Assembly (NCBI GenBank): GCA_964016885.1
Contig: OZ024741.1
Location: 140,058,001-140,122,000, forward strand
From: Eledone cirrhosa
Taxonomy: Eukaryota
Direction of reading: 5' to 3'
DNA: 64,000 bases
Positions 4,401-57,683 of this stretch are shown here, one piece after another; position 1 is the stretch's first letter, and each line of letters begins with the position of its first letter. The notes below the pieces were generated by a model that made no database searches, was not told the origin of the DNA, and saw only the letters and a list, made by a program, of their open reading frames with translations. The translations under genes were made by a program, and so were the position numbers.

Positions 4401-5179
4401 GTGTTGGTAACACACAGATCCAGCTCCTCACACATCTGCAGCAAGAGCATACCATTGCTGTTACACTTTCCCACCCCATGCCTTCCGATTACATTCCATG
4501 TGTTAAAATCCCTACCCACTCTAGCATTAAAGTCACCAAGCACGATGACTTTGTCTGCCTGAGGGATATTTCTTAAAACACCTTTCAAGGCATGGTAAAA
4601 GGACAGTTTTTCTTCATCGACAGAATTCATAGTTGGAGCATACACACTCACCAGGGTAGCATATCTTCCCTTGTCCAGCGGAACTCTCATGGACATAAGA
4701 CGCTCACTAATCCCCACTGGGAATTCTTCCAATTTATTCACCAGTACAGTCTTAACAGCAAATCCTACCCCAGCCTCTCTTCTGGTTCCTTCATCTCTTC
4801 CTTTCCAGAAGAATGTATATTCTCCACAAAATTCCGTAAGATGACCATCTCCAGCTAACCTCGTCTCAGACAAAGCCACGATGTCAAGATCGTAACGTCG
4901 AAGCTCCTTTGCAACAAGAGCGGTCCTTCGTTCAGGACGCTCCAAAGAATCCCCGTCAAGCAGCGTCCGTACGTTCCAGCAGCCAAGACTAAATGCCCTG
5001 TTTGGCTCTATTACAATGGCACGATGACGGGCGGGCCCAGGTTGTGATAACTTGGGGCCCCTGTCCTTATTGCCAATGATCTTTTTTGTTCCAGAACCCA
5101 AATTGGCAATCATCTCGTTTACATTGTTCTGGAACATCATTGAATTGGAAAAAAAAAAAAAAAAAAAAAAGTAATAATA

Positions 5180-8155: not shown

Positions 8156-8519
8156 TGATGAGCAGAACAAACAAACATTAAACAATCCTTTAAATAAATT
8201 AAAAAATAATTTAAAAAATAATTTAAATATTTACAATGCTATTACCGGCGGTTTCCATCCACAAAAGATTGGAAATTCGGAGAATTTCCAACGGAAAGTA
8301 GATTTCTTCAGATAGCTATTTCCATTCTATAGGACATTTGTCCCACGGTCAGCAAATATAATGCTAACTACCAGCACGTATGGGCTATAGCCGTTAAAGT
8401 GACCCGTACGTGACCTGGCCACTAGAGCAAGCGGGAATATTATAGACTTGTTGATGGCTTGGCTGCTAAAAAAATAGCAGTAAGCAACAACGAATTTTTT
8501 CTCTACATAGATTGGAGAA

Positions 8520-8867
8520 TATATAAAAATGAGGTAAATATCTCATTGAGCACTAAGTACACACTGAGATATATAGGGTGTCTACAATATAATTGTTGTT
8601 CTATGGTACTAATTCGAGATACCAGTACTATAAAAATTGATGAGCAGAACAAACAAACATTAAACAATCCGCCGGTAATAGCATTATGAACAGGTAAATA
8701 TTTAAATTATTTTTTAATTTATTTAAAGGATTGTTTAATGTTTGTTTGTTCTGCTCATCAATGTTTATAGTTCTGGTATCTCGAATTAGTACCATAGAAC
8801 AACAATTATATTGTAGACACCCTATATATCTCAGTGTGTACTTAGTGCTCAATGAGATATTTACCTC

Positions 8868-8878
<11 letters not shown>
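8520..8878. repeat. ~150-bp inverted repeat with a third partial copy at 8151-8251
   Basis: 8520-8670 is the reverse complement of 8728-8878. The spacer 8671-8727 largely matches the reverse complement of 8189-8249. Confidence 0.9.
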
Positions 8879-8905
<27 letters not shown>

Positions 8906-17962: not shown

Positions 17963-19638
17963 TAAAATAACAGATTAAAGTTTAAGCAAAGAATCGCTGC
18001 TTTCACCCTTAACGGGATCTTTTGAAACTAACAAAGTCAATCTGTAAACGCAGAACTGGATATTTCAAAAAACGTTGCAACCGGAGGAAGACAGGAAGAC
18101 GATACTTTGGTTCGTGGAAACGTTCGCTGGCAAAGAACGGGAAAAAACGAATAATACGTCATTAAAAGGAGCGGTGAAAAACAATTACGCGCAAAGACAG
18201 AACCACGCTTAGGTGTAAAAGAGGTCGTAGACTAATGTTCCCTTAGGTGGTGCATAGAGACGTTCTCTGGCAATGAACGAAAAAACGAAGATAATAAGTC
18301 ATATGTGGAGGGTGGAGAACAATAGCACGCAAAGACAAAACCACGTAAATGGTATAGCAGAAGTCGTAGACTAAAATTCTAACTAGGAGACCAAATGAAT
18401 CTCCGCTACAGAGGAAAGAACAAAGTAAATAAATACAATACAGAAGTAATAGAAATAAATGAATACATACACGCAAACAAATACGTACATACACAAGCAT
18501 ACGCAAAACCTTACCATAGGTATACAACCACGCACATATAAATATATGTGTGTATGTGTACGCTTGTGTACAAATAAATAAATAATTATATAAACGTATA
18601 TAAGTAAATAAATACGTATATAACAAGCGCACACACATACCTACATATAAATACACGAATGTTCGGAGACGTAAGTCAACTAAAACAAGAAGTACACATA
18701 TACACACACCCACCATACGTACGAACCTGCATACTCAAGCAGACGCAAAACTCCCGTATACACATAGCCAAACCCCAAATACCAGAATATATAAAAAATA
18801 TACGCCATAACAATCAAATATACGTACGAGAAGGTATACAACCTTCACAAAACATACAGGTAATATATATGTTTTGTTTATTCCTTTACTTATTTGCATA
18901 GGTAAATATATATTACCTGTATGTTTTGTGAAGGTTGTATACCTTCTCGTACGTATATTTGATTGTTATGGCGTATATTTTTTATATATTCTGGTATTTA
19001 GGGTTTGGCTATGTGTATACGGGAGTTTTGCGTCTGCGTGAGTATGCAGGTTCGTACGTATGGTGAGTGTGTGTATATGTGTACTTCTTGTTTTAGTTGA
19101 CTTACGTCTCCGAACATTCGTGTATTTATATGTAGGTGTGTGTGTGCGCTTGTTATATACGTATTTATTTACTTACATACGTTTATATAATTATTTATTT
19201 GTTTGTACACAAACATACACACACACACACATATTTGTATGTGCGTGGTTGTATACCTAAGGTAAGGTTTTGCGTATGCTTGTGTATGTACGTATTTGTT
19301 TGCGTGTATGTATTTATTTATTTCTATTACTTCTGTATTGTATTTATTTACTTTGTTCTTAACTCTGTAGCGGAGATTCATTTCGTCTCCTAGTTAGAAT
19401 TTTAGTCTACGACTTCTGCTATACCATTTACGTGGTTTTGTCTTTGCGTGCTATTGTTCTCCACCCTCCACATATGACTTATTATCTTCGTTTTTTCGTT
19501 CATTGCCAGAGAACGTCTCTATGCACCACCTAAGGGAACATTAGTCTACGACCTCTTTTATACCTAAACGTGGTTCTGTCTTTGCGCGTTAAGGGTGAAA
19601 GCAGCGATTCTTTGCTTAAACTTTAATCTGTTATTTTA
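17963..19638. repeat. Large non-coding inverted duplication (~680-bp arms plus 50-bp outer arms)
   Basis: 18187-18870 is the reverse complement of 18906-19589. 17963-18012 is the reverse complement of 19587-19638. Confidence 0.93.
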
Positions 19639-24577: not shown

Positions 24578-24810
24578 GTATATATGTATATATATATATG
24601 TATATATATATGTGTATATGTATATATATATATGTATATATATATATGTGTATATGTATATATATATATATATATATATAATGTAGGAGGTGAGTTTTAT
24701 TATAGTACAATAAAGCAATGCAGATATAGGATAAGAAGCACTCTACAGTTTGTAGGACTGGAGTATACATAATATATAAGCACAAAAGATGGTTAAAAGA
24801 GTTCCATGTA

Positions 24811-24877
24811 TTTTATTATGCGCATTTCAAAAACAAATATCATCATGCAATAATATTTGTGTTTTCATCAGATAAAA
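24811..24877 (-). ncRNA. Type I hammerhead ribozyme (family B, left arm)
   Basis: Reverse complement of the 25010-25076 motif: CUGAUGA...GAAA-UGCGCA-UA. Confidence 0.78.
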
Positions 24878-25009
24878 CAGGAAGACATGATATGAAGGTT
24901 AAAAAACACTTGTGGATAGTGCAGTTTTCAATCAACATATATATTGATATGTTGATTTAAAACTGCACTATCCACAAGTGTTTTTTAACCTTCATATCAT
25001 GTCTTCCTG

Positions 25010-25076
25010 TTTTATCTGATGAAAACACAAATATTATTGCATGTTGATATTTGTTTTTGAAATGCGCATAATAAAA
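25010..25076 (+). ncRNA. Type I hammerhead ribozyme (family B, right arm)
   Basis: UUUUAU-CUGAUGA-AAACACAAAUAUUA...UGAUAUUUGUUUUU-GAAA-UGCGCA-UA-AUAAAA. Confidence 0.78.
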
Positions 25077-25135
25077 TACATGGAACTCTTTTAACCATCT
25101 TTTGTTCTTATATATTATATATTTATATATATATG

Positions 25136-26488: not shown

Positions 26489-26651
26489 GTATATATATAT
26501 ATCTATGTATATATATTATATATATATATATGTATATGCATATATATATATGTATATATATATATGTATATATAGGTATATATATATATATATATATGTA
26601 CAGTATATATATGTATATATATATGTATATACATATGTGTATGTATATATA

Positions 26652-27031
26652 CATTAGTTAAGCAAAACAAGACCACACATTTCACAAGAAAGACATTGTT
26701 ATATGATTGTTAACATAGTTTTAGTTTAATGTAAGGAATGTAAAGAATAATAATAATAAGACTAATAATGTCCGTTTACAATTGTTTCGCTCCCCCATAT
26801 ACTGTTTCTAGATCAAATGATTATAGATCATTATTGATCTGGTTCAGTTGAAGATAATTAATCATTTGATCCAGAAACATTATATGGAGTAGCGAAACAA
26901 TTGTAAACGGATATTATTAGTATTATTATTATTATACTTTACATTCCTTACATTAAACTAAAAACTATGTTGACAATCTTTTAATAATGTCTTCCTTGTG
27001 AAATTTGTGGTCTTGTTTTGCTTAACTAATG
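26652..27031. repeat. ~380-bp diverged palindrome (pLTR-like)
   Basis: 26652-26823 is the reverse complement of 26859-27031. The arms carry the hammerhead 3'-half signature GAAA-CAATTG-TA. Confidence 0.9.
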
Positions 27032-27209
27032 AATATTTCCAGTTCTGTGCACCTAACCTCTGCATGAACCTTGCTACCTAGCTTCCTTCCACTGCATATT
27101 GCACATTGAGCACATGCCTTTACACTTTGGCCTCTCACTAATTCACCAATCTCTCTTCTCCTCTCCATTCTCCATCTCTCTCTTTAAGATTGGTTACTCT
27201 TGAACTGTG

Positions 27210-28568
<1,359 letters not shown>

Positions 28569-28670
28569 ATAATCGATCATGGCTAAACGATCGATCTAAC
28601 CCTTATTTAAACATATGTCGTGATTAAAATGATTGGAAATGTATACTATGCCTCCGGGTTTTATTTTGAT

Positions 28671-28742
<72 letters not shown>

Positions 28743-28840
28743 AAATAAAATCCGAAGGCATGGTATTAATTTCCAATCATTTTAATCACGACACATGTAT
28801 CAATAAGAGATAGATCGATCGTTTAGCCATGATTGATTAT
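28569..28840. repeat. ~104-bp inverted repeat around a (TA)n spacer, with a third copy at 30335-30413
   Basis: 28569-28672 is the reverse complement of 28737-28840. Confidence 0.9.
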
Positions 28841-31850: not shown

Positions 31851-31998
31851 TACGTATGGATTCACCGAACATTTATTATAATGCTCGGCGTGTTTGTAAA
31901 CAAATATCCCGTATTAAGCCGTAGTGTCTAGCAAGCATCGTTGCTCGTTTGTTCAACACTGACAAAGGAACGGGATGTTTGTTTATACGGGATGTATA

Positions 31999-34900
31999 GG
32001 CCAGGTGTCATACCGACAGCCATTGCCGGCATCCCAAAAGTCACACCAGTGCTGTTGCTGAATGTCAGAGGCCTGTTGAAACACACTACCATGTGTAAAA
32101 CTTCCTACCTTGCAGACTCACCCATAAGCAATCAAGCATTATGCATGGCACTAACCGAAACGCACCTGACAAGCAGTATAGCAGATGCAGAGATACATAT
32201 ACCGAAATATACTGTATTTCGTTCGGACAGGAAGGAGAGAACTCATGGTGTGGTTCCTTTGTATATCCGTGAAGATGTCACAGCAATTGTACTGTTGACA
32301 CATTCAAACTCAGTCTGTGACACACTGATAGTACACGTGAAGCAACTAAAGACAGTAATTTGTGTCACATATCGGCTGCCCGATGCCCGCAGTCATGAGG
32401 GTAAATTTGAGGATAGCCTCAGTAGGATAGAAGATGTTCTTGACAAACTGGACCAAGGTCTCAACATTCTACTGCTGGGAGACTTCAACCTGCCAAAGGT
32501 CAAATGGCCTAAAGGTCACCTCCTCCCTGGATTGATGTCAATAGAACAGAGACAGACGGAGTCCCTGCTGGCCCTCACACACACAGGCTGTTCATGGAAC
32601 AAGCAGTACTCCTCCCAACAAGAGGCGAACATGTCCTTGACCTCTGTTTTACAAACAATGAAGTGCTCGTCCACAATGTAAAGGTGACACCAACAATTTT
32701 TTCGGATCATAACTTAGTAGAACTAATGATCTGTGGTCCGAGAGAACCAACAGAGAAGCACCAGGACCTTATCCAGCCTTAACTTCTACAAGGCTAACTG
32801 GAAAAAGATTAAGAGAGAAATCCGGAAGCAAATATGGAGCGAAAACGCCGCCACACAAGACACCAACACACAATTTCAACATTTCATGACGACGATACAC
32901 ACTATATGGAAAAAATTTGTCCCGGAGAAAAAGGAAAACAGACTCAACAATCTTATTCCCAGAGATAGGAAAATCCTTGAGTCCAAGAACCAAGCTCTCA
33001 AACCAGTTGAATGCACAAAGAGAAAACAAAAACAAGAAAGAATCCTATTTGAAACGTGCACTACTTGACACCGAGATCGCACTCAAACTTTCCCATGAAA
33101 TTGAGAGGGCAAAGAAAGAAAGCAGGGCCAAAGAAAATATTAAAACAAACCCTAAGGCCTTCTTTAAATTTGCTAAAGAAACTGCCTCGGTACACTGCAA
33201 GATTGGGCTACTCTTCTATACAGACAGTTCATTAACTGAGAATCCCAAAGAGATAAGTGAAATACTGAACGAACAGTACAAAAGTGTGTTCACATGTCCA
33301 CTGATTCACATGCAAATAACAAAGCCAGAGGAGGTATCTGATGCCACAACACTACATGAAGAAATGGCGACCATCAACCACATAGACATAACGGAGGAAG
33401 ATGTGGTATACGCCATAGATGAAATTAGAACACACTCAGCTGCTGGACCTGATGGATTCCCAGCAGTTCTCTTAAAAACATGTAAGCGGGCCTTAGCAAC
33501 TCAACTGAAGACGCTCTTCAGAAGCTCCTTGTCTAGCAGTACACTACCCAGGGAGCTGAAAGAAGGCACAATATACCCTATCGATAAAGGAGGTTGCAGA
33601 GCGGAGGCCAAAACCTATAGCCCAGTCTCCCTGACGTCACATATCATTAAGGTCATGGAGCGAGTCATCAGAAAGAAATTGATCACTTTCCTCGAGGAAA
33701 ATGACCGCCTGACTAGCACTCAGCATGGCTTTCGCCCAGGAAGAAGCTGCCTTACACAACTGCTACATCACTACAACTGGGTACTGAAACAACTGCTAGA
33801 CAGCTCACATGTGGACGTGATATATATTGACTTTGTGAAGGCCTTTGACAACGTCGAACACGGAATGATATGTCACAAACTACACGGACTCGGCATAACT
33901 GGAAATGTAGGTGAGTGGCTGCACTACTTCTTAAAGGACAAAAGCCATACAGTCGCAGCAAACAAGGCCCTCTCAAAGGAAACATCAATAACAAGTGGGG
34001 TGCCCCAAGGCACAGTCCTGGGACCACTACTGTTTTTGGTGGCTCTCTCGTACATGCCCTCTGTAGTACATACAACAACATCCCTCACTAGCTATGCTGA
34101 TAACACTAAAGTAGCACAGGCAATAAAAAACCCGGCTGACGCTGCCCTTTTACAACAGATCTGGATGTCATATACAAATGGGCGGAAGACAACAACATGC
34201 AGATTAATGCTGGCAAATTCCAAGCCCTACAATACAAACCTGCAAACACAAATACAGTACAACAGAGTTACGCAGGACCAGGAGAGACCGATATCCCCGT
34301 GTCAAAATCGATACGAGACCTGGGTATAGACATGAGCGACGATGAATCATTTTCTTCACACATCTTGAAAGTGGCGATAATGTGCAGACGACTCGCTGGC
34401 TGGATCTTGAGGACTTAACGGACAAGAGACCGAGACACCATGTTGACACTATGGAGGACATTTGTCCTAAGCCGCCTGTACTATTGCTCCCATAGTCACC
34501 CCATAGTATCAGACTAACGGAGCTTGAGGCAATCCAGCGAAGCTACACCAAGAGGATTGCCACGATGAAGGAGATAAGCTACTGGGAGAGGCTACAAGAA
34601 CTGAACCTCTACTCCTTGGAACGAAGACAGGAGAGATACATAGTGATCTACATGTGGAGAATCCTGGAGGGACTAGCACCAAATTTTGGCATTGGGAGCT
34701 GGACCAACCGTCGAACTGGATGTCACTGTGTGGTGCCAAAGGTCCCGTCTCCCACAGCTAGAATAAGGAGCAGATATTGCAATAGCCTGAGGTTCAGGGG
34801 CCCTTAAATCTTCAAAAAGCTGCCGAGAGATCTCAGAGATCTGCATGGTGTGGATTTGGATGTCTTCAACAACATCTCGACAACTTTCTATCCAGGATCC

Positions 34901-35713: not shown

Positions 35714-38700
35714 TGACAGACAAAGAGAATGGCCAGCTAAATCTAACAGTGAACAGCTCATCAACAATTTGCTGAAATCCATCCCACTTCCTCTGAAGAA
35801 CAGCGAGAAAGGTCAGCTAACTCTAGTAGTAATTGTCACCACATCAACAACGAAGCTGAAATTCATGACTCTACTTAACAAACAGAGCACCAAAAACGTG
35901 TGGGCTCCCTACAAGTGATATGGAACAATATGTTTCAAGAGATACACAGCCTTAATGTGAGTGACAGACCATACAACACTAGAGGCAGTAAAGAAACCAC
36001 TAAATTGGAATTGGAAGCGGTGAACGAAATAGCTGGCAGTTATCTGAAGGCGATACGATCTAAAGGTGTAGAAACGACATTTGAAACGCTTAATGTTTTG
36101 TTATACGTTTCAGCTGTCACATTGCTATCATATAACACACATCTAAAACCACGCAATCAAGATACAAGCAGAAAGCCTGAACCAGCGTGGATGCGAAATT
36201 TAAAATCCAAAATGTTGTCCCTGAGACGAAGTATCTCACACATCGCAGTCGTTATGAAATGCAACATAGAGAGCAACTTCACACGACACCAGGAAGACCC
36301 AAAGAAAAAGTTAGAGAGACGATTTGGAGATACACAATTTAAAACTTTGAACTCCAAATTACACCAGTTGAAACAACGACTCACAGCTACAACAGAAAGA
36401 CTGAAATATAAGTCAACAGCACATAAACGACAAGTGCTAAATAGATTGTTTGCCAGAGATCCTAAATCAGTTTATCGCAGCTTCGGTGGCAAAAGCTCAA
36501 TCTCTGTAAATGACACCCCTTCAAAAGAACAGGTTGAGAGCTACTGGAGATATGTATGGGAAACGGATGACGGATTCAACAGACAAGCTAATTGGCTAAA
36601 AGAACTGGAACAGGACTACTGCCAACATGTCCAGACAAAACAATATGACATAGATGGGTCAATACTGGAAACAGCTCTACAGAAAATGTCGAATAGGAAA
36701 TCGCCAGGCCCAGACCTCATTACAGGATACTGGTTGAAGAATTTCACTTTCTATCGGCAAGATCTCATACGGCTGTTTACAGAAACCATTAAGGGCACAC
36801 AACAACTGCCCAGATGGTTATCAACTGCCTCTACTCTCCTCATTCCCCAAAATAGCCAAACCACCCTTGCTAAAAATTACCGCCCAATTGCCTGCCAAAA
36901 CATCATGTATAAATTATATACTGGGTGCCTTTACCTGTTCTTACAGGATCACTGTGCTACCAACAACATCATAACACCTGAGCAAGCTGGTGGAAAGAGG
37001 GAGGTGTGGGGTTGCATAGATCACCTACTAACTAACAAAATGATTCAGGAAAAAACAACAAAGAATCGCAGAAACATGATGTCGTGTGGCTGGACTATCA
37101 AAAGCATTTGATAGTGTACCTCATGGGTGGATTGTTAAGGCTTTTCAGTTAGCTAAAGTCCCACAACCATTGGTAGCTGCTGTTGAACGCCTGACCAAGA
37201 ACTGGTACACCAGTTTGATCCTTAGAGGTGAGAAGGAGCAGGTTAAGACTGATAAGATACATTACCAGAAGGGCATCTTTCAGGGTGATAGCTTGTCAGT
37301 GCTACTCTTCGTTCTCTTACTGAATCCACTATCTTACCTACTCAGGAAACAAGGTGGACAAAGAAGTGGGCCCAGAAGTATCTCCCATCTTTTCTTTGTT
37401 GATGACCTGAAGTTGTATGGGCCAAATATCAATGACATCAAGAAACAATTGGACCTCATTACACAATTTTCAACCGACATCAAAATGAAATTTGGTGAGT
37501 CCAAGTGTGCATATTTGGCAGTAAAACGTGGAAGAGCTGTGCCCTCCTCTAGAAATCTAGAGATGAACGGCCTGACAATACAACCGCTGCAGTCAGGTGA
37601 CAACTACAGATATCTTGGACAGGATGAGAATGTCAGATATGATGGACCCATAAATAAGGAGAGAACCAGAACTGAATACCTCAGAAGAGTAAAGAAAATA
37701 TGGTCATCAGAACTGTCAGCATACAACAAATACATTGCCAACAATACTTATGCTGTGCCAATTCTAACGCCAACATTTGGCCTACTGAACTGGTCATTGC
37801 AAGAACTAAGTGAGATGGATGTTAGAACTCGAAAACTTCTCAGTGTTACTGGGAACTTTAACACCAATGGTGATGTGGATAGGCTATACTTCTCACGCAA
37901 GGAAGGTGGCCGGGGTCTAAAATCAATATTAACAACATATGAGACCCGGATAGTAACACTGAAGCAACACCTTCAGCAGAGGAAAAAGGTTGGCAACCAT
38001 CTTGCCCAGGTTTATGACCATGAAAAAAGAAATATCATTAGAATAGCGACTGATCTGGAGGAGAGATATGGAATAAAGCCTGATATAAATCTCTCACCCA
38101 GAGAAATCGGAAGATCCTATTTAATGTTCAAACAAGATAAAAAAATTGACCAATTTACAGAAAAAGTTGTGCATGGATACTTGAGGCGTAAAACACAGAC
38201 CATAGAGGGGATAAACCACTCAAAAAGCCTGGCATGGAGTTCCGACAAATTTATAACATCACACCTTGAGGGATATCTCTATGCAATACAGGAACAAGAA
38301 CTCCCTACCAAATACCTGCTGCACAAAAGAGGAGGGCCAGCAGCTGACAATAAATTTAGGCTATGTAAAACAAAGATCGAGGATGTAAGCCACATTGTTG
38401 CCAGCTGCGAAAGAATGTCATCTCGCTACTACCTCCCCATGAGACACGATGGGATAGCTAGAACCATCTGGAACGCACTTCGGAAAACAAAATTAACAAC
38501 AAACGAGGAAGAATATATTGAGACAGATGGCACTAAGGAATACTGGTGGAACCTGAAGATAAAAACTGCCACCAAATTAAAGCACAACCGGCCTGATATT
38601 GTAGTTTGGGACCACGCATTGAAAACGTGTTCTGTTGTGGAGATCAGCTGCCCACTTGATGTAAACGTTGTCAGAAAAATACAGGAGAAGGAGGACATCT

Positions 38701-38780
38701 ACGGACCATTGATGAGGAGTTTACAAATCCAGTATCCAAGATACACCTTTAGCTTCATACCCATCATTATTGGTGCTACG
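35714..38780 (+). mobile_element. R4/Dong-like non-LTR retrotransposon (RT + CCHC + restriction-like endonuclease), one frameshift, 3' end replaced
   Basis: KSPGPD, NYRPIAC, KAFDSVPH, GIFQGDSLS, FVDD, YLG, GGRGL, (F)RLC..H....C, RHD, RPDIV, VEISCP. Frameshift at ~37085. Confidence 0.88.
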
Positions 38781-38854
38781 GAGATGAAATCGAAAATGCA
38801 ACTGGAGTCTTATTTTTTAATTTTTTTTTTTTTAAATATATATATTTATTTGGT

Positions 38855-38894
38855 TCCATTACCGGTTTCGCAGTTCTTGTGCTTTTCAAAAGTA
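38855..38894 (-). ncRNA. Variant hammerhead motif, UUGAAAA core (family D, left arm)
   Basis: CUU-UUGAAAA-GCAC aagaa CUGC-GAAA-CCGG-UA-AUG; stems weakened by mismatches. Confidence 0.5.
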
Positions 38895-38966
38895 GAGTTG
38901 AGATGGAGGGTCTGTGGTTTTCTCACATCTGGTGTGAGAAAAACCACTGACCCTCCATCTCAACTC

Positions 38967-39006
38967 TACTTTTGAAAAGCAGAAGAACTGCGAAACCGGT
39001 AAAGGA
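38967..39006 (+). ncRNA. Variant hammerhead motif, UUGAAAA core (family D, right arm)
   Basis: CUU-UUGAAAA-GCAG aagaa CUGC-GAAA-CCGG-UA-AAG, with palindromic stem III ACCGGU. Confidence 0.62.
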
Positions 39007-39085
39007 ACCAAATAAATATATATATTTAAAAAAAAATATATATATATATAAGACTCCAGTTGCATTTTCGATTTCATCTCTTTTT

Positions 39086-40110
<1,025 letters not shown>

Positions 40111-52420: not shown

Positions 52421-52747
52421 ACATTTCTCTCAGTCTTCTTAAGTATTTTGAAGTGAAACTTACCAATTTCTGGATACCTGCAGAAGAGCACAGGAATAGG
52501 AACTTTGACTTAATTGTTGCGAAACAAATTTAAAATTTAAAATTTGAAATGTGTCCAGGTATCAAGGCTATTGCCAATATAGTTTTGTTTTCATTGATTT
52601 ATTATTTTAAATCGAGACAGGCAAACCGTATTATTTTAATTAGTATTATTCAATCTAGCTAACTTGGTCATTTGCGATGCAAACACATGTATACTTGTAT
52701 CAGTGTTTATCCCTAGCATATATTCATTTGTATATATATATATATAT

Positions 52748-57683
<4,936 letters not shown>

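What the first reader, a model, noticed from the sequence alone, without database searches (positions are those of the whole stretch)
38781..39080. Second palindromic ribozyme dimer with a non-canonical U3-A8 hammerhead core
Seen: a 300-bp palindrome whose arms read UUGAAAA-stem II-GAAA-CCGG-UA instead of CUGANGA. Known: positions 3 and 8 form a tertiary Watson-Crick pair (C3-G8), and rare covarying natural variants exist. Inference: U3-A8 is a compensatory double change that motif searches for CUGANGA would miss. The architecture matches 24769-25118 but the sequence is unrelated, so the design recurs. Stem I is only ~3 bp, so activity is uncertain.
Basis: partly seen in the sequence, partly recalled or inferred. 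Interest (0 to 1): 0.75.

Follow-up and report, generated by a model that had tools for sequence, protein, structure and literature searches.

The report
Penelope stub with U3-A8 hammerhead
This palindrome is two short, back-to-back end pieces of a very common Penelope-type jumping gene, likely left by one insertion event; each piece carries a predicted self-cutting RNA motif in a variant form already published for such elements, so it is an ordinary new example, and the palindrome itself is predicted to block the motif rather than pair it up.

Summary
The 300-bp palindrome and the UUGAAAA...GAA-ACCGGU-A motif are real. The motif pattern has 17,841 genomic matches against 11 for the control. 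It lies in the pseudo-LTR of a Neptune/Nematis-type Penelope-like retroelement (RT + GIY-YIG) and is a minimal type I hammerhead with U3-A8, a variant published for Schistosoma elements (same UUGAAAA core, 3-bp stem I). Across sister families stem I covaries and position 7 is free, so the fold is likely selected. The palindrome is not a ribozyme dimer: one arm is antisense, and it folds into one hairpin with no hammerhead helices. It is a head-to-head pair of short copies. Of 101 copies sampled, 50 start in one 13-base zone about 30 bases below a TATA-like box (likely the transcription start) and 1 starts at the cut site, so uncut RNA is likely the usual template. The 24769 palindrome is the same by-product of another Penelope clade. 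Side finding: a sister family (12,204 matches) has fixed C13 in the core. No RNA data; cleavage untested. The scan has reported this kind of structure before on other DNA.

The parts
38781..38932 (-). Inverted, truncated copy of the element's pseudo-LTR end (positions -74 to +68 relative to the cut site)
   Evidence: Alignment to a natural 3' pLTR from L044
38860..38889 (-). Damaged hammerhead motif of the left arm (U3 38889, A17 38860); C-C mismatch in stem II, U-U in stem I
38930..38933 (.). Fold-back point; matches the family's 5'-end hot spot (-72 to -68), likely the transcription start
   Evidence: 42 of 101 copies start at -72..-68; TATAAAA lies at -101 in the parent pLTR
38933..39087 (+). 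Sense copy of the pseudo-LTR end, from -68 to the 'short' 3' end
38969..39004 (+). Minimal type I hammerhead motif, U3-A8 core (UUGAAAA), 4-bp stem II, palindromic ACCGGU in place of stem III, 3-bp stem I, predicted cut after 39001
   Evidence: activity not tested
39088..40100 (.). (TA)n tract, the likely insertion target (right end approximate)
   Evidence: 3' ends of the 40 copies printed nearly all run into (TA)n
35879..38782 (+). Unrelated RT-encoding non-LTR retrotransposon (C-terminal CCHC and restriction-like motif; clade R4/Dong-like from recall), missing its last ~225 bases; shares GA (38781-82) with the left arm
   Evidence: Pfam RVT_1 E 7.8e-15; all 11 other matches end at 38782; normal 3' end read in 10 of them

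Best explanation
The palindrome is a head-to-head pair of ~150-base end fragments of an abundant Penelope-like retroelement whose pseudo-LTR carries a U3-A8 minimal hammerhead motif, and it likely arose as a by-product of one insertion at a (TA)n tract. Shown: the motif sits in both pseudo-LTRs of RT + GIY-YIG elements; copies have two fixed 3' ends and one fixed 5' start; neighbouring copies are almost always head-to-head. Inferred: the element's protein nicks both DNA strands, primes reverse transcription at two internal RNA sites about 63 bases apart, runs each cDNA through the uncut hammerhead to the RNA 5' end about 70 bases upstream, and the two cDNAs are joined there. The left arm then lost its end in a deletion that also removed the neighbouring LINE's 3' end. 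Inferred: in the parent, the hammerhead works, if at all, slowly and as a same-sense dimer through ACCGGU (the two pLTR copies 5.1-5.3 kb apart, or two RNAs), probably with help from the element's protein. At this locus it would be locked in a long hairpin and inactive.
For: Parent: L045 = inverted arm + pLTR + RT/EN frames + pLTR (motifs 5,145 apart); L046 has the same palindrome at the 5' end of a long copy; L047 similar. GIY-YIG above the Pfam cut-off in L047 and L046 (E 3.4e-6, 7.2e-6); Cx4CxxC linker and CxxC inside GIY-YIG, the Neptune/Nematis marks in PMC8557442. Orientation: of 25 neighbour pairs within 7 kb among the first 100 matches, 23 head-to-head, 1 tail-to-tail, 1 same-strand at 5,157 (p 2.5e-12 against 0.25). 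5' ends: 50 of 101 at -74..-62, 1 of 101 at the cut site; summed contig depth in three public runs of one sample falls about 3.5-fold across that zone. 3' ends: 65 long, 36 short. Of 36 head-to-head pairs, 25 could be classed: 20 long+short, 4 long+long, 1 short+short (p 5e-4). Fold selected: stem I reads CG/UA/AU, UA/AU, UA/AU across 8 subfamilies, 95.8% of 48 cells paired, score 0.80 against at most 0.41 for slid partners; N7 is A, U or C while 3-6, 8, 9 and ACCGGU-A are invariant in 16 rows. Hairpin. Literature: PMC4209133, PMC3088659, PMC8557442, PMC11167929 (both-strand nicking and extension, two internal RT starts, protein-assisted hammerhead, uncut RNA as main template).
Against: No RNA data, so the transcription start and any cleavage are untested. 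Stem I has pair probability at most 0.001 in pLTR context, and adding it to the dimer costs 3.6 kcal/mol (-15.5 against -19.1). A sister family with 12,204 matches has lost the invariant A13, which argues that catalysis is dispensable. None of the long copies translated has an unbroken ORF. The 16 rows of the covariation test were chosen by me, two per subfamily, with patterns that included the stem I flanks, so they are not independent, and the stem II 'covariation' is partly a register shift. The tail (about 63 bases) is longer than the published 30-40. 11 of 36 pairs were unclassifiable and some loci gave several pairs. Fold-back copying of a single cDNA is not excluded.
Confidence: 0.85

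Rival explanations
1. The palindrome is a purpose-built ribozyme dimer in which the two arms form a double hammerhead.
For: Both arms carry the motif with a self-complementary ACCGGU; two same-sense units are predicted to dimerise weakly, -19.1 against 2 x -6.6 kcal/mol; the layout recurs in an unrelated family with 19,064 matches.
Against: The arms are on opposite strands, so one RNA holds motif plus antisense; hairpin -215.6 kcal/mol with hammerhead pairs at probability 0.0; sense-antisense duplex -78.9. The left arm has two helix-breaking changes. Arm spacing varies from 50 to 5,695 bases.
Confidence: 0.03
2. Same element, but the inversion comes from fold-back self-priming of one cDNA at the RNA 5' end, or from later DNA rearrangement, and not from two priming events.
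For: Junctions show short inverted microhomologies and small duplications; both arms of a pair often share a subfamily variant; both window arms share an 11-base expansion.
Against: The long+short pairing (20 of 25) needs two defined 3' ends, each followed by (TA)n, and both ends also occur in single copies. The related PAc protein extends both strands in vitro (PMC11167929).
Confidence: 0.2
3. The motif in this clade no longer cuts; the fold is kept for RNA-RNA pairing through ACCGGU or for binding the element's protein. This concerns function and is compatible with the insertion model.
For: 1 of 101 copies starts at the cut site and 91 run across it; stem I is not predicted to form; family B fixed C13 and still reached 12,204 matches with stems and palindrome intact; catalytic mutants did not affect PAc insertion in vitro.
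Against: Families A and C keep all catalytic positions at about 44% endonuclease identity while N7 drifts; U3-A8 cores are reported active in vitro (passage in PMC3088659); cut RNA may simply not be a template.
Confidence: 0.35
4. A miniature inverted-repeat DNA transposon or a retrozyme-like self-spreading hairpin.
For: Many near-identical short palindromes between (TA)n tracts.
Against: Arms are continuous with an RT + GIY-YIG element, show a series of 5' truncations and unequal outer ends, and about half of the matches have no inverted partner within 7 kb; no short tandem arrays among the first 100 matches.
Confidence: 0.03

Closest known systems
U3-A8 minimal hammerheads in pLTRs of Schistosoma mansoni Cercyon Penelope-like elements (Cervera and de la Pena 2014, PMC4209133; parts 1-2 of 4 read, one supplement searched, one not available)
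   Same: Type I minimal motif in pLTRs, U3-A8 core, palindromic replacement of stem III, duals on opposite strands; the supplement row S. mansoni(4), marked as PLE-associated, has UUGAAAA and a 3-bp stem I.
   Different: Another host and PLE lineage; 6-nt palindrome ACCGGU; 4-bp stem II with no bulged base after A9 in families A and B; over ten times more copies; a sister family with C13.
Neptune/Nematis-type Penelope-like elements with C-terminal GIY-YIG endonuclease (Craig et al. 2021, PMC8557442; passages read)
   Same: RT then GIY-YIG, CX2-5CxxC linker, CxxC within GIY-YIG, pLTRs, adjacent inverted 5'-truncated copy, tail at one end, (TA)n targets.
   Different: Tail about 63 bases instead of 30-40; Neptune against Nematis not resolved (no reference proteins on hand).
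PAc (Poseidon) of Anolis, in vitro mechanism (PMC11167929; passages and second half of the main text read)
   Same: Two fixed 3' ends, AT-rich targets, copies that run through the uncut hammerhead.
   Different: PAc has C3-G8 and its ORF starts in stem II; here the first ATG of the long frame lies about 170 bases past the cut site, beyond the tail.
Natural U3-A8 hammerheads (Perreault et al. 2011, PMC3088659; passages read)
   Same: Same covariation; also the U10.1-U11.1 mismatch seen here in family C.
   Different: The passages read describe no C13 variant.

Membership tests
Type I minimal hammerhead (PLE min-HHR) | Core U4 G5 A6 N7, A9, G12 A13 A14, A15.1-U16.1, H17 | tested here: met
   family A keeps all (family B fails at A13)
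Type I minimal hammerhead (PLE min-HHR) | Watson-Crick pair at 3-8 | tested here: met
   U3-A8 in 155 of 161 classified copies (sample partly drawn with U3-A8 patterns); in the open-position search U3 in 98 and A8 in 98 of the 100 listed, no C3-G8
Type I minimal hammerhead (PLE min-HHR) | Stems I and II kept with compensatory change | tested here: met
   Stem I: 3 of 3 pairs change on both sides, 46 of 48 cells paired (rows hand-picked). Stem II: fourth pair G-C in A, U-A in B
Type I minimal hammerhead (PLE min-HHR) | Palindromic stem III region for same-sense dimers | tested here: met
   ACCGGU in all subfamilies (but it was part of the search patterns); predicted homodimer -19.1 kcal/mol
Type I minimal hammerhead (PLE min-HHR) | Self-cleavage after H17 | not testable with these tools
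   No RNA holder listed; genomic 5' ends show no pile-up at the site (1 of 101)
Neptune/Nematis-type PLE | PLE-type RT followed by C-terminal GIY-YIG endonuclease | tested here: met
   RT motifs GxKF, DKG, YLDD read from translations; Pfam RVT_1 did not hit the RT fragments
Neptune/Nematis-type PLE | CX2-5CxxC linker and CxxC inside GIY-YIG | tested here: met
   CxxxxCxxC and CKGC in L043, L046; definition
Neptune/Nematis-type PLE | pLTRs, inverted 5'-truncated copy, one-sided tail, (TA)n targets | tested here: met
Neptune/Nematis-type PLE | RT phylogeny placing it in Neptune or in Nematis | not tested
   No reference proteins available; the tree holds only this genome's endonuclease fragments
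Double (dimeric) hammerhead formed by the palindrome | Two motifs in the same sense on one RNA | tested here: not met
   Opposite strands; single long hairpin
Non-LTR retrozyme | Short non-coding tandem monomers with hammerheads | tested here: not met
   No same-strand neighbours under 5 kb among the first 100 matches; motif tied to a coding element

The most novel reading that the evidence does not exclude
The U3-A8 swap opened a new path in the hammerhead core: a derived sister family with over 12,000 copies (one in this window, at 52904 and 57425) fixed C at the otherwise invariant position 13 while keeping stems, palindrome and cut triplet, and this U3-A8-C13 core still cleaves, as a dimer or with the element's protein. 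That would be a natural three-change core I found no description of, and families A, B and C would form a ready-made allelic series for asking what Penelope hammerheads are for.
Probability: 0.15. Interest if true: 0.55.

Novelty: new member of a known kind. Interest (0 to 1): 0.24.

Why it matters
As a ribozyme variant it adds little: U3-A8 Penelope hammerheads are in print since 2014. Its use is as a record of mechanism. About 32,000 pattern matches in three related families (17,841 + 12,204 + 1,580) would be missed by CUGANGA searches. The short palindromes likely mark the RNA start and the two reverse-transcription starts of the element to within a few bases. The near absence of copies starting at the cut site, together with a successful C13 family, bears on the open question of whether Penelope hammerheads must cut for the element to move.

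Tried and rejected
Rfam scan of the window at E up to 5: no hammerhead family among the 150 of 307 rows shown, which were microRNA-hairpin and similar chance matches, all below gathering score. The repeat finder was swamped by (TA)n. The RT frame that runs into the palindrome was considered as the parent and rejected: its other copies end differently and carry no such motif. Within-clade C3-G8 copies (L113, L114, L117, L118) were considered as ancestral forms; they are a handful among thousands and 0 of 100 in the open search, so more likely chance changes or junction products. A splice acceptor at CAG|ATG was considered for the 5' hot spot and disfavoured because upstream junctions share no common exon. 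RNA search: no RNA holder listed; three contig runs of one sample were laid, may be the source sample, and cannot show expression or ends. The 'noHH' labels of family C rows are misses of my filter; those loci were fetched by their motif. In one search, many of the 27 ends beyond -200 are alignment stops at an internal microsatellite or at region edges, not true ends. Papers not held: Lunse et al. 2017, Przybilski and Hammann 2007, Martick and Scott 2006; they are known to me only from recall or from citing passages, and Lunse et al. may hold C13 or cephalopod variants. Searches for print: hammerhead + U3-A8 gave 1 paper; C3U + G8A gave 1 listing, not read; hammerhead ribozyme + A13C gave 0; hammerhead + Penelope-like + Octopus gave 1.

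Full report
Observation. The stretch 38781-39080 is 92.4% self-complementary and folds as one hairpin of -215.6 kcal/mol, z = -36. The plus-strand arm reads CTT-TTGAAAA-GCAG AAGAA CTGC-GAA-ACCGGT-A-AAG: a type I hammerhead layout with U3-A8, a 4-bp stem II, a 6-base palindrome in place of stem III, a 3-bp stem I and H17 at 39001. The minus-strand arm has the same motif (U3 38889, A17 38860) with two private changes that break a pair in stem II and a pair in stem I. The window lies in a 3.0-Gb animal genome; I did not test which. The pattern TTGAAAA-N9-18-GAAACCGGT has 17,841 matches against 11 for the reversed control; the C3-G8 form with the same 3' half has 103 against 14, mostly an unrelated family.

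What it belongs to. Thirty related loci share the motif and up to about 1 kb upstream. Of ten loci extended to 10 kb, five hold RT and/or GIY-YIG frames of one family next to the motif. L045 shows inverted arm, pLTR, coding frames, pLTR, with the two same-sense motifs 5,145 bases apart. L046 has a palindrome like the window's at the 5' end of a long copy. The endonuclease passes the Pfam GIY-YIG cut-off in L047 and L046 and has the Cx4CxxC linker and inner CxxC that PMC8557442 gives for Neptune and Nematis (passages). That paper also describes the adjacent inverted 5'-truncated copy, the one-sided tail and (TA)n targeting. None of the long copies had an unbroken frame. The RT frame that runs into the palindrome from the left (35879-38782; Pfam RVT_1) is another element: all 11 other matches stop at 38782, and 10 of them could be read on through about 225 more bases to a (CATA)n-type end. 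The two elements share two bases at the junction, which suggests a deletion (inference).

How the palindrome arises. Among the first 100 matches, 25 neighbour pairs lie within 7 kb: 23 head-to-head, 1 tail-to-tail, 1 same-strand at unit length. I then anchored on a 27-mer 40 bases downstream of the cut site (10,949 matches), fetched the first 100 places and mapped 101 occurrences on a natural pLTR. Fifty start at -74..-62 (42 at -72..-68), 4 inside the motif, 1 at the cut site, 9 downstream of it and 37 further upstream. TATAAAA lies at -101 and CCAAT at -151 in the reference, so the hot spot is about 30 bases below a TATA-like box; family B shows the same spacing by eye. I infer a transcription start. 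The 3' ends fall in two classes, 65 long and 36 short, about 63 bases apart. Of 36 head-to-head pairs, 25 could be classed and 20 are long+short (some loci give several pairs). The window's right arm runs from -68 to the short end and the left from -74 to +68. PMC11167929 shows for the Anolis element that the protein nicks and extends both strands, starts reverse transcription at two internal sites that define the tail, uses mainly uncut RNA, and is needed for its hammerhead to cut. The simplest reading is two short cDNAs of the RNA's 5' end joined head-to-head. Fold-back copying of one cDNA remains possible. I had seen this two-ended reading in the scan's notes before testing it here.

Is it a dimer? 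Not as a palindrome. One transcript holds one sense and one antisense arm; stem I and stem II pairs have probability 0.0 on both strands, and the sense-antisense duplex of a 48-base unit is -78.9 kcal/mol. Two same-sense units are predicted to pair through ACCGGU at -19.1 against 2 x -6.6; the full double hammerhead with stem I scores -15.5 and the monomer +2.4. In pLTR context stem II forms (0.74-0.87) and stem I does not (at most 0.001). So any activity belongs to the parent transcript, and would be weak or protein-aided.

Is the fold selected? Two sister families were found. Family B (10,909 matches; 12,204 with the C13 pattern) has endonuclease identity of about 48% to A; family C (1,580 matches) about 44%. 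All keep U3-A8. Position 7 is A in A and B and U, C or A in C. Stem I reads CUU/AAG, CCUU/AAGG, UUU/AAA, AAU/AUU and GCAA/UUGU in different subfamilies, with one subfamily at only 2 clean pairs. On 16 hand-picked natural rows, 46 of 48 stem I cells pair and all three pairs change on both sides, score 0.80 against at most 0.41 when partners are slid; the rows are related and were chosen with the flanks in the pattern, so this is support, not a probability. Within the clade 3-8 does not covary: in an open-position search of one subfamily U3 and A8 each stood in 98 of 100 listed rows and C3-G8 in none. Against continued catalysis: family B has fixed C13. The endonuclease tree groups B with C (98/95) apart from A, and both A and C have A13, so C13 is likely derived (midpoint root, 25 fragments). 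From recall, not from a call: G8 and A13 pair in the ground-state structure, so a change at 13 after G8A could be compensatory.

The other palindrome. The 24769-25118 motif has 19,064 matches. In L305 it flanks an 821-aa frame with DKT and a CxCX5C linker, the marks PMC8557442 gives for the Hydra clade. The design recurs because two Penelope clades leave the same insertion by-product.

Comparison and verdict. PMC4209133 reports U3-A8 minimal hammerheads from Cercyon elements (about 1,300 hits), duals on opposite strands 100-700 bp apart, no monomer activity and low dimer activity; its supplement lists a PLE-linked motif with UUGAAAA and a 3-bp stem I (one supplementary file could not be searched). 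PMC3088659 reports natural U3-A8 cores and cites in vitro activity. The scan's own notes describe the same structure in at least three genomes. The finding is a new member of a known kind. What I did not find in print is the C13 family, with the caveat that Lunse et al. 2017 was not available. RNA evidence was not obtainable. Interest 0.24.

Noticed in passing
window 52743-57586 (motif at 52904 minus and 57425 plus; RT and endonuclease frames 56271-53959 minus): A copy of sister family B in the window: U3-A8 core with C at the normally invariant position 13 (GCA for GAA), 12,204 genomic matches against 5 for the control.
   Followed up: partly
window 24769-25118 and 17628; L305 2129-4592: The canonical CUGAUGA family (19,064 matches) belongs to a Penelope-like element with DKT and CxCX5C motifs, the Hydra-clade marks; an 821-aa open stretch was seen in L305.
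   Followed up: partly
L161-L190, L311-L330: Family C: U3-A8 with N7 = U, C or A and an extra U-U or A-U pair at the base of stem II.
   Followed up: partly
window 35879-38782; G000:C2:248455479-248464918: RT plus restriction-like endonuclease LINE ending in (CATA)n; four head-to-tail copies about 3.09 kb apart elsewhere on the same contig.
   Followed up: partly
window 38966-38985: In family A, CUUUUG can pair with CAGAAG and trap U3-G5 in an alternative hairpin (seen in the folds); it could keep the monomer off.
   Followed up: no
window 38812-38835 and 39026-39050: Both arms carry an 11-base expansion at the same place with different letters (A/T run against TA run), which suggests slippage or repair within the hairpin.
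   Followed up: no
window 18187-19589, 8519-8879, 26647-27036, 28569-28840: Further long palindromes in the window, not examined.
   Followed up: no
window 31932-34329: Degraded apurinic-endonuclease plus RT LINE (Pfam Exo_endo_phos_2, RVT_1).
   Followed up: no
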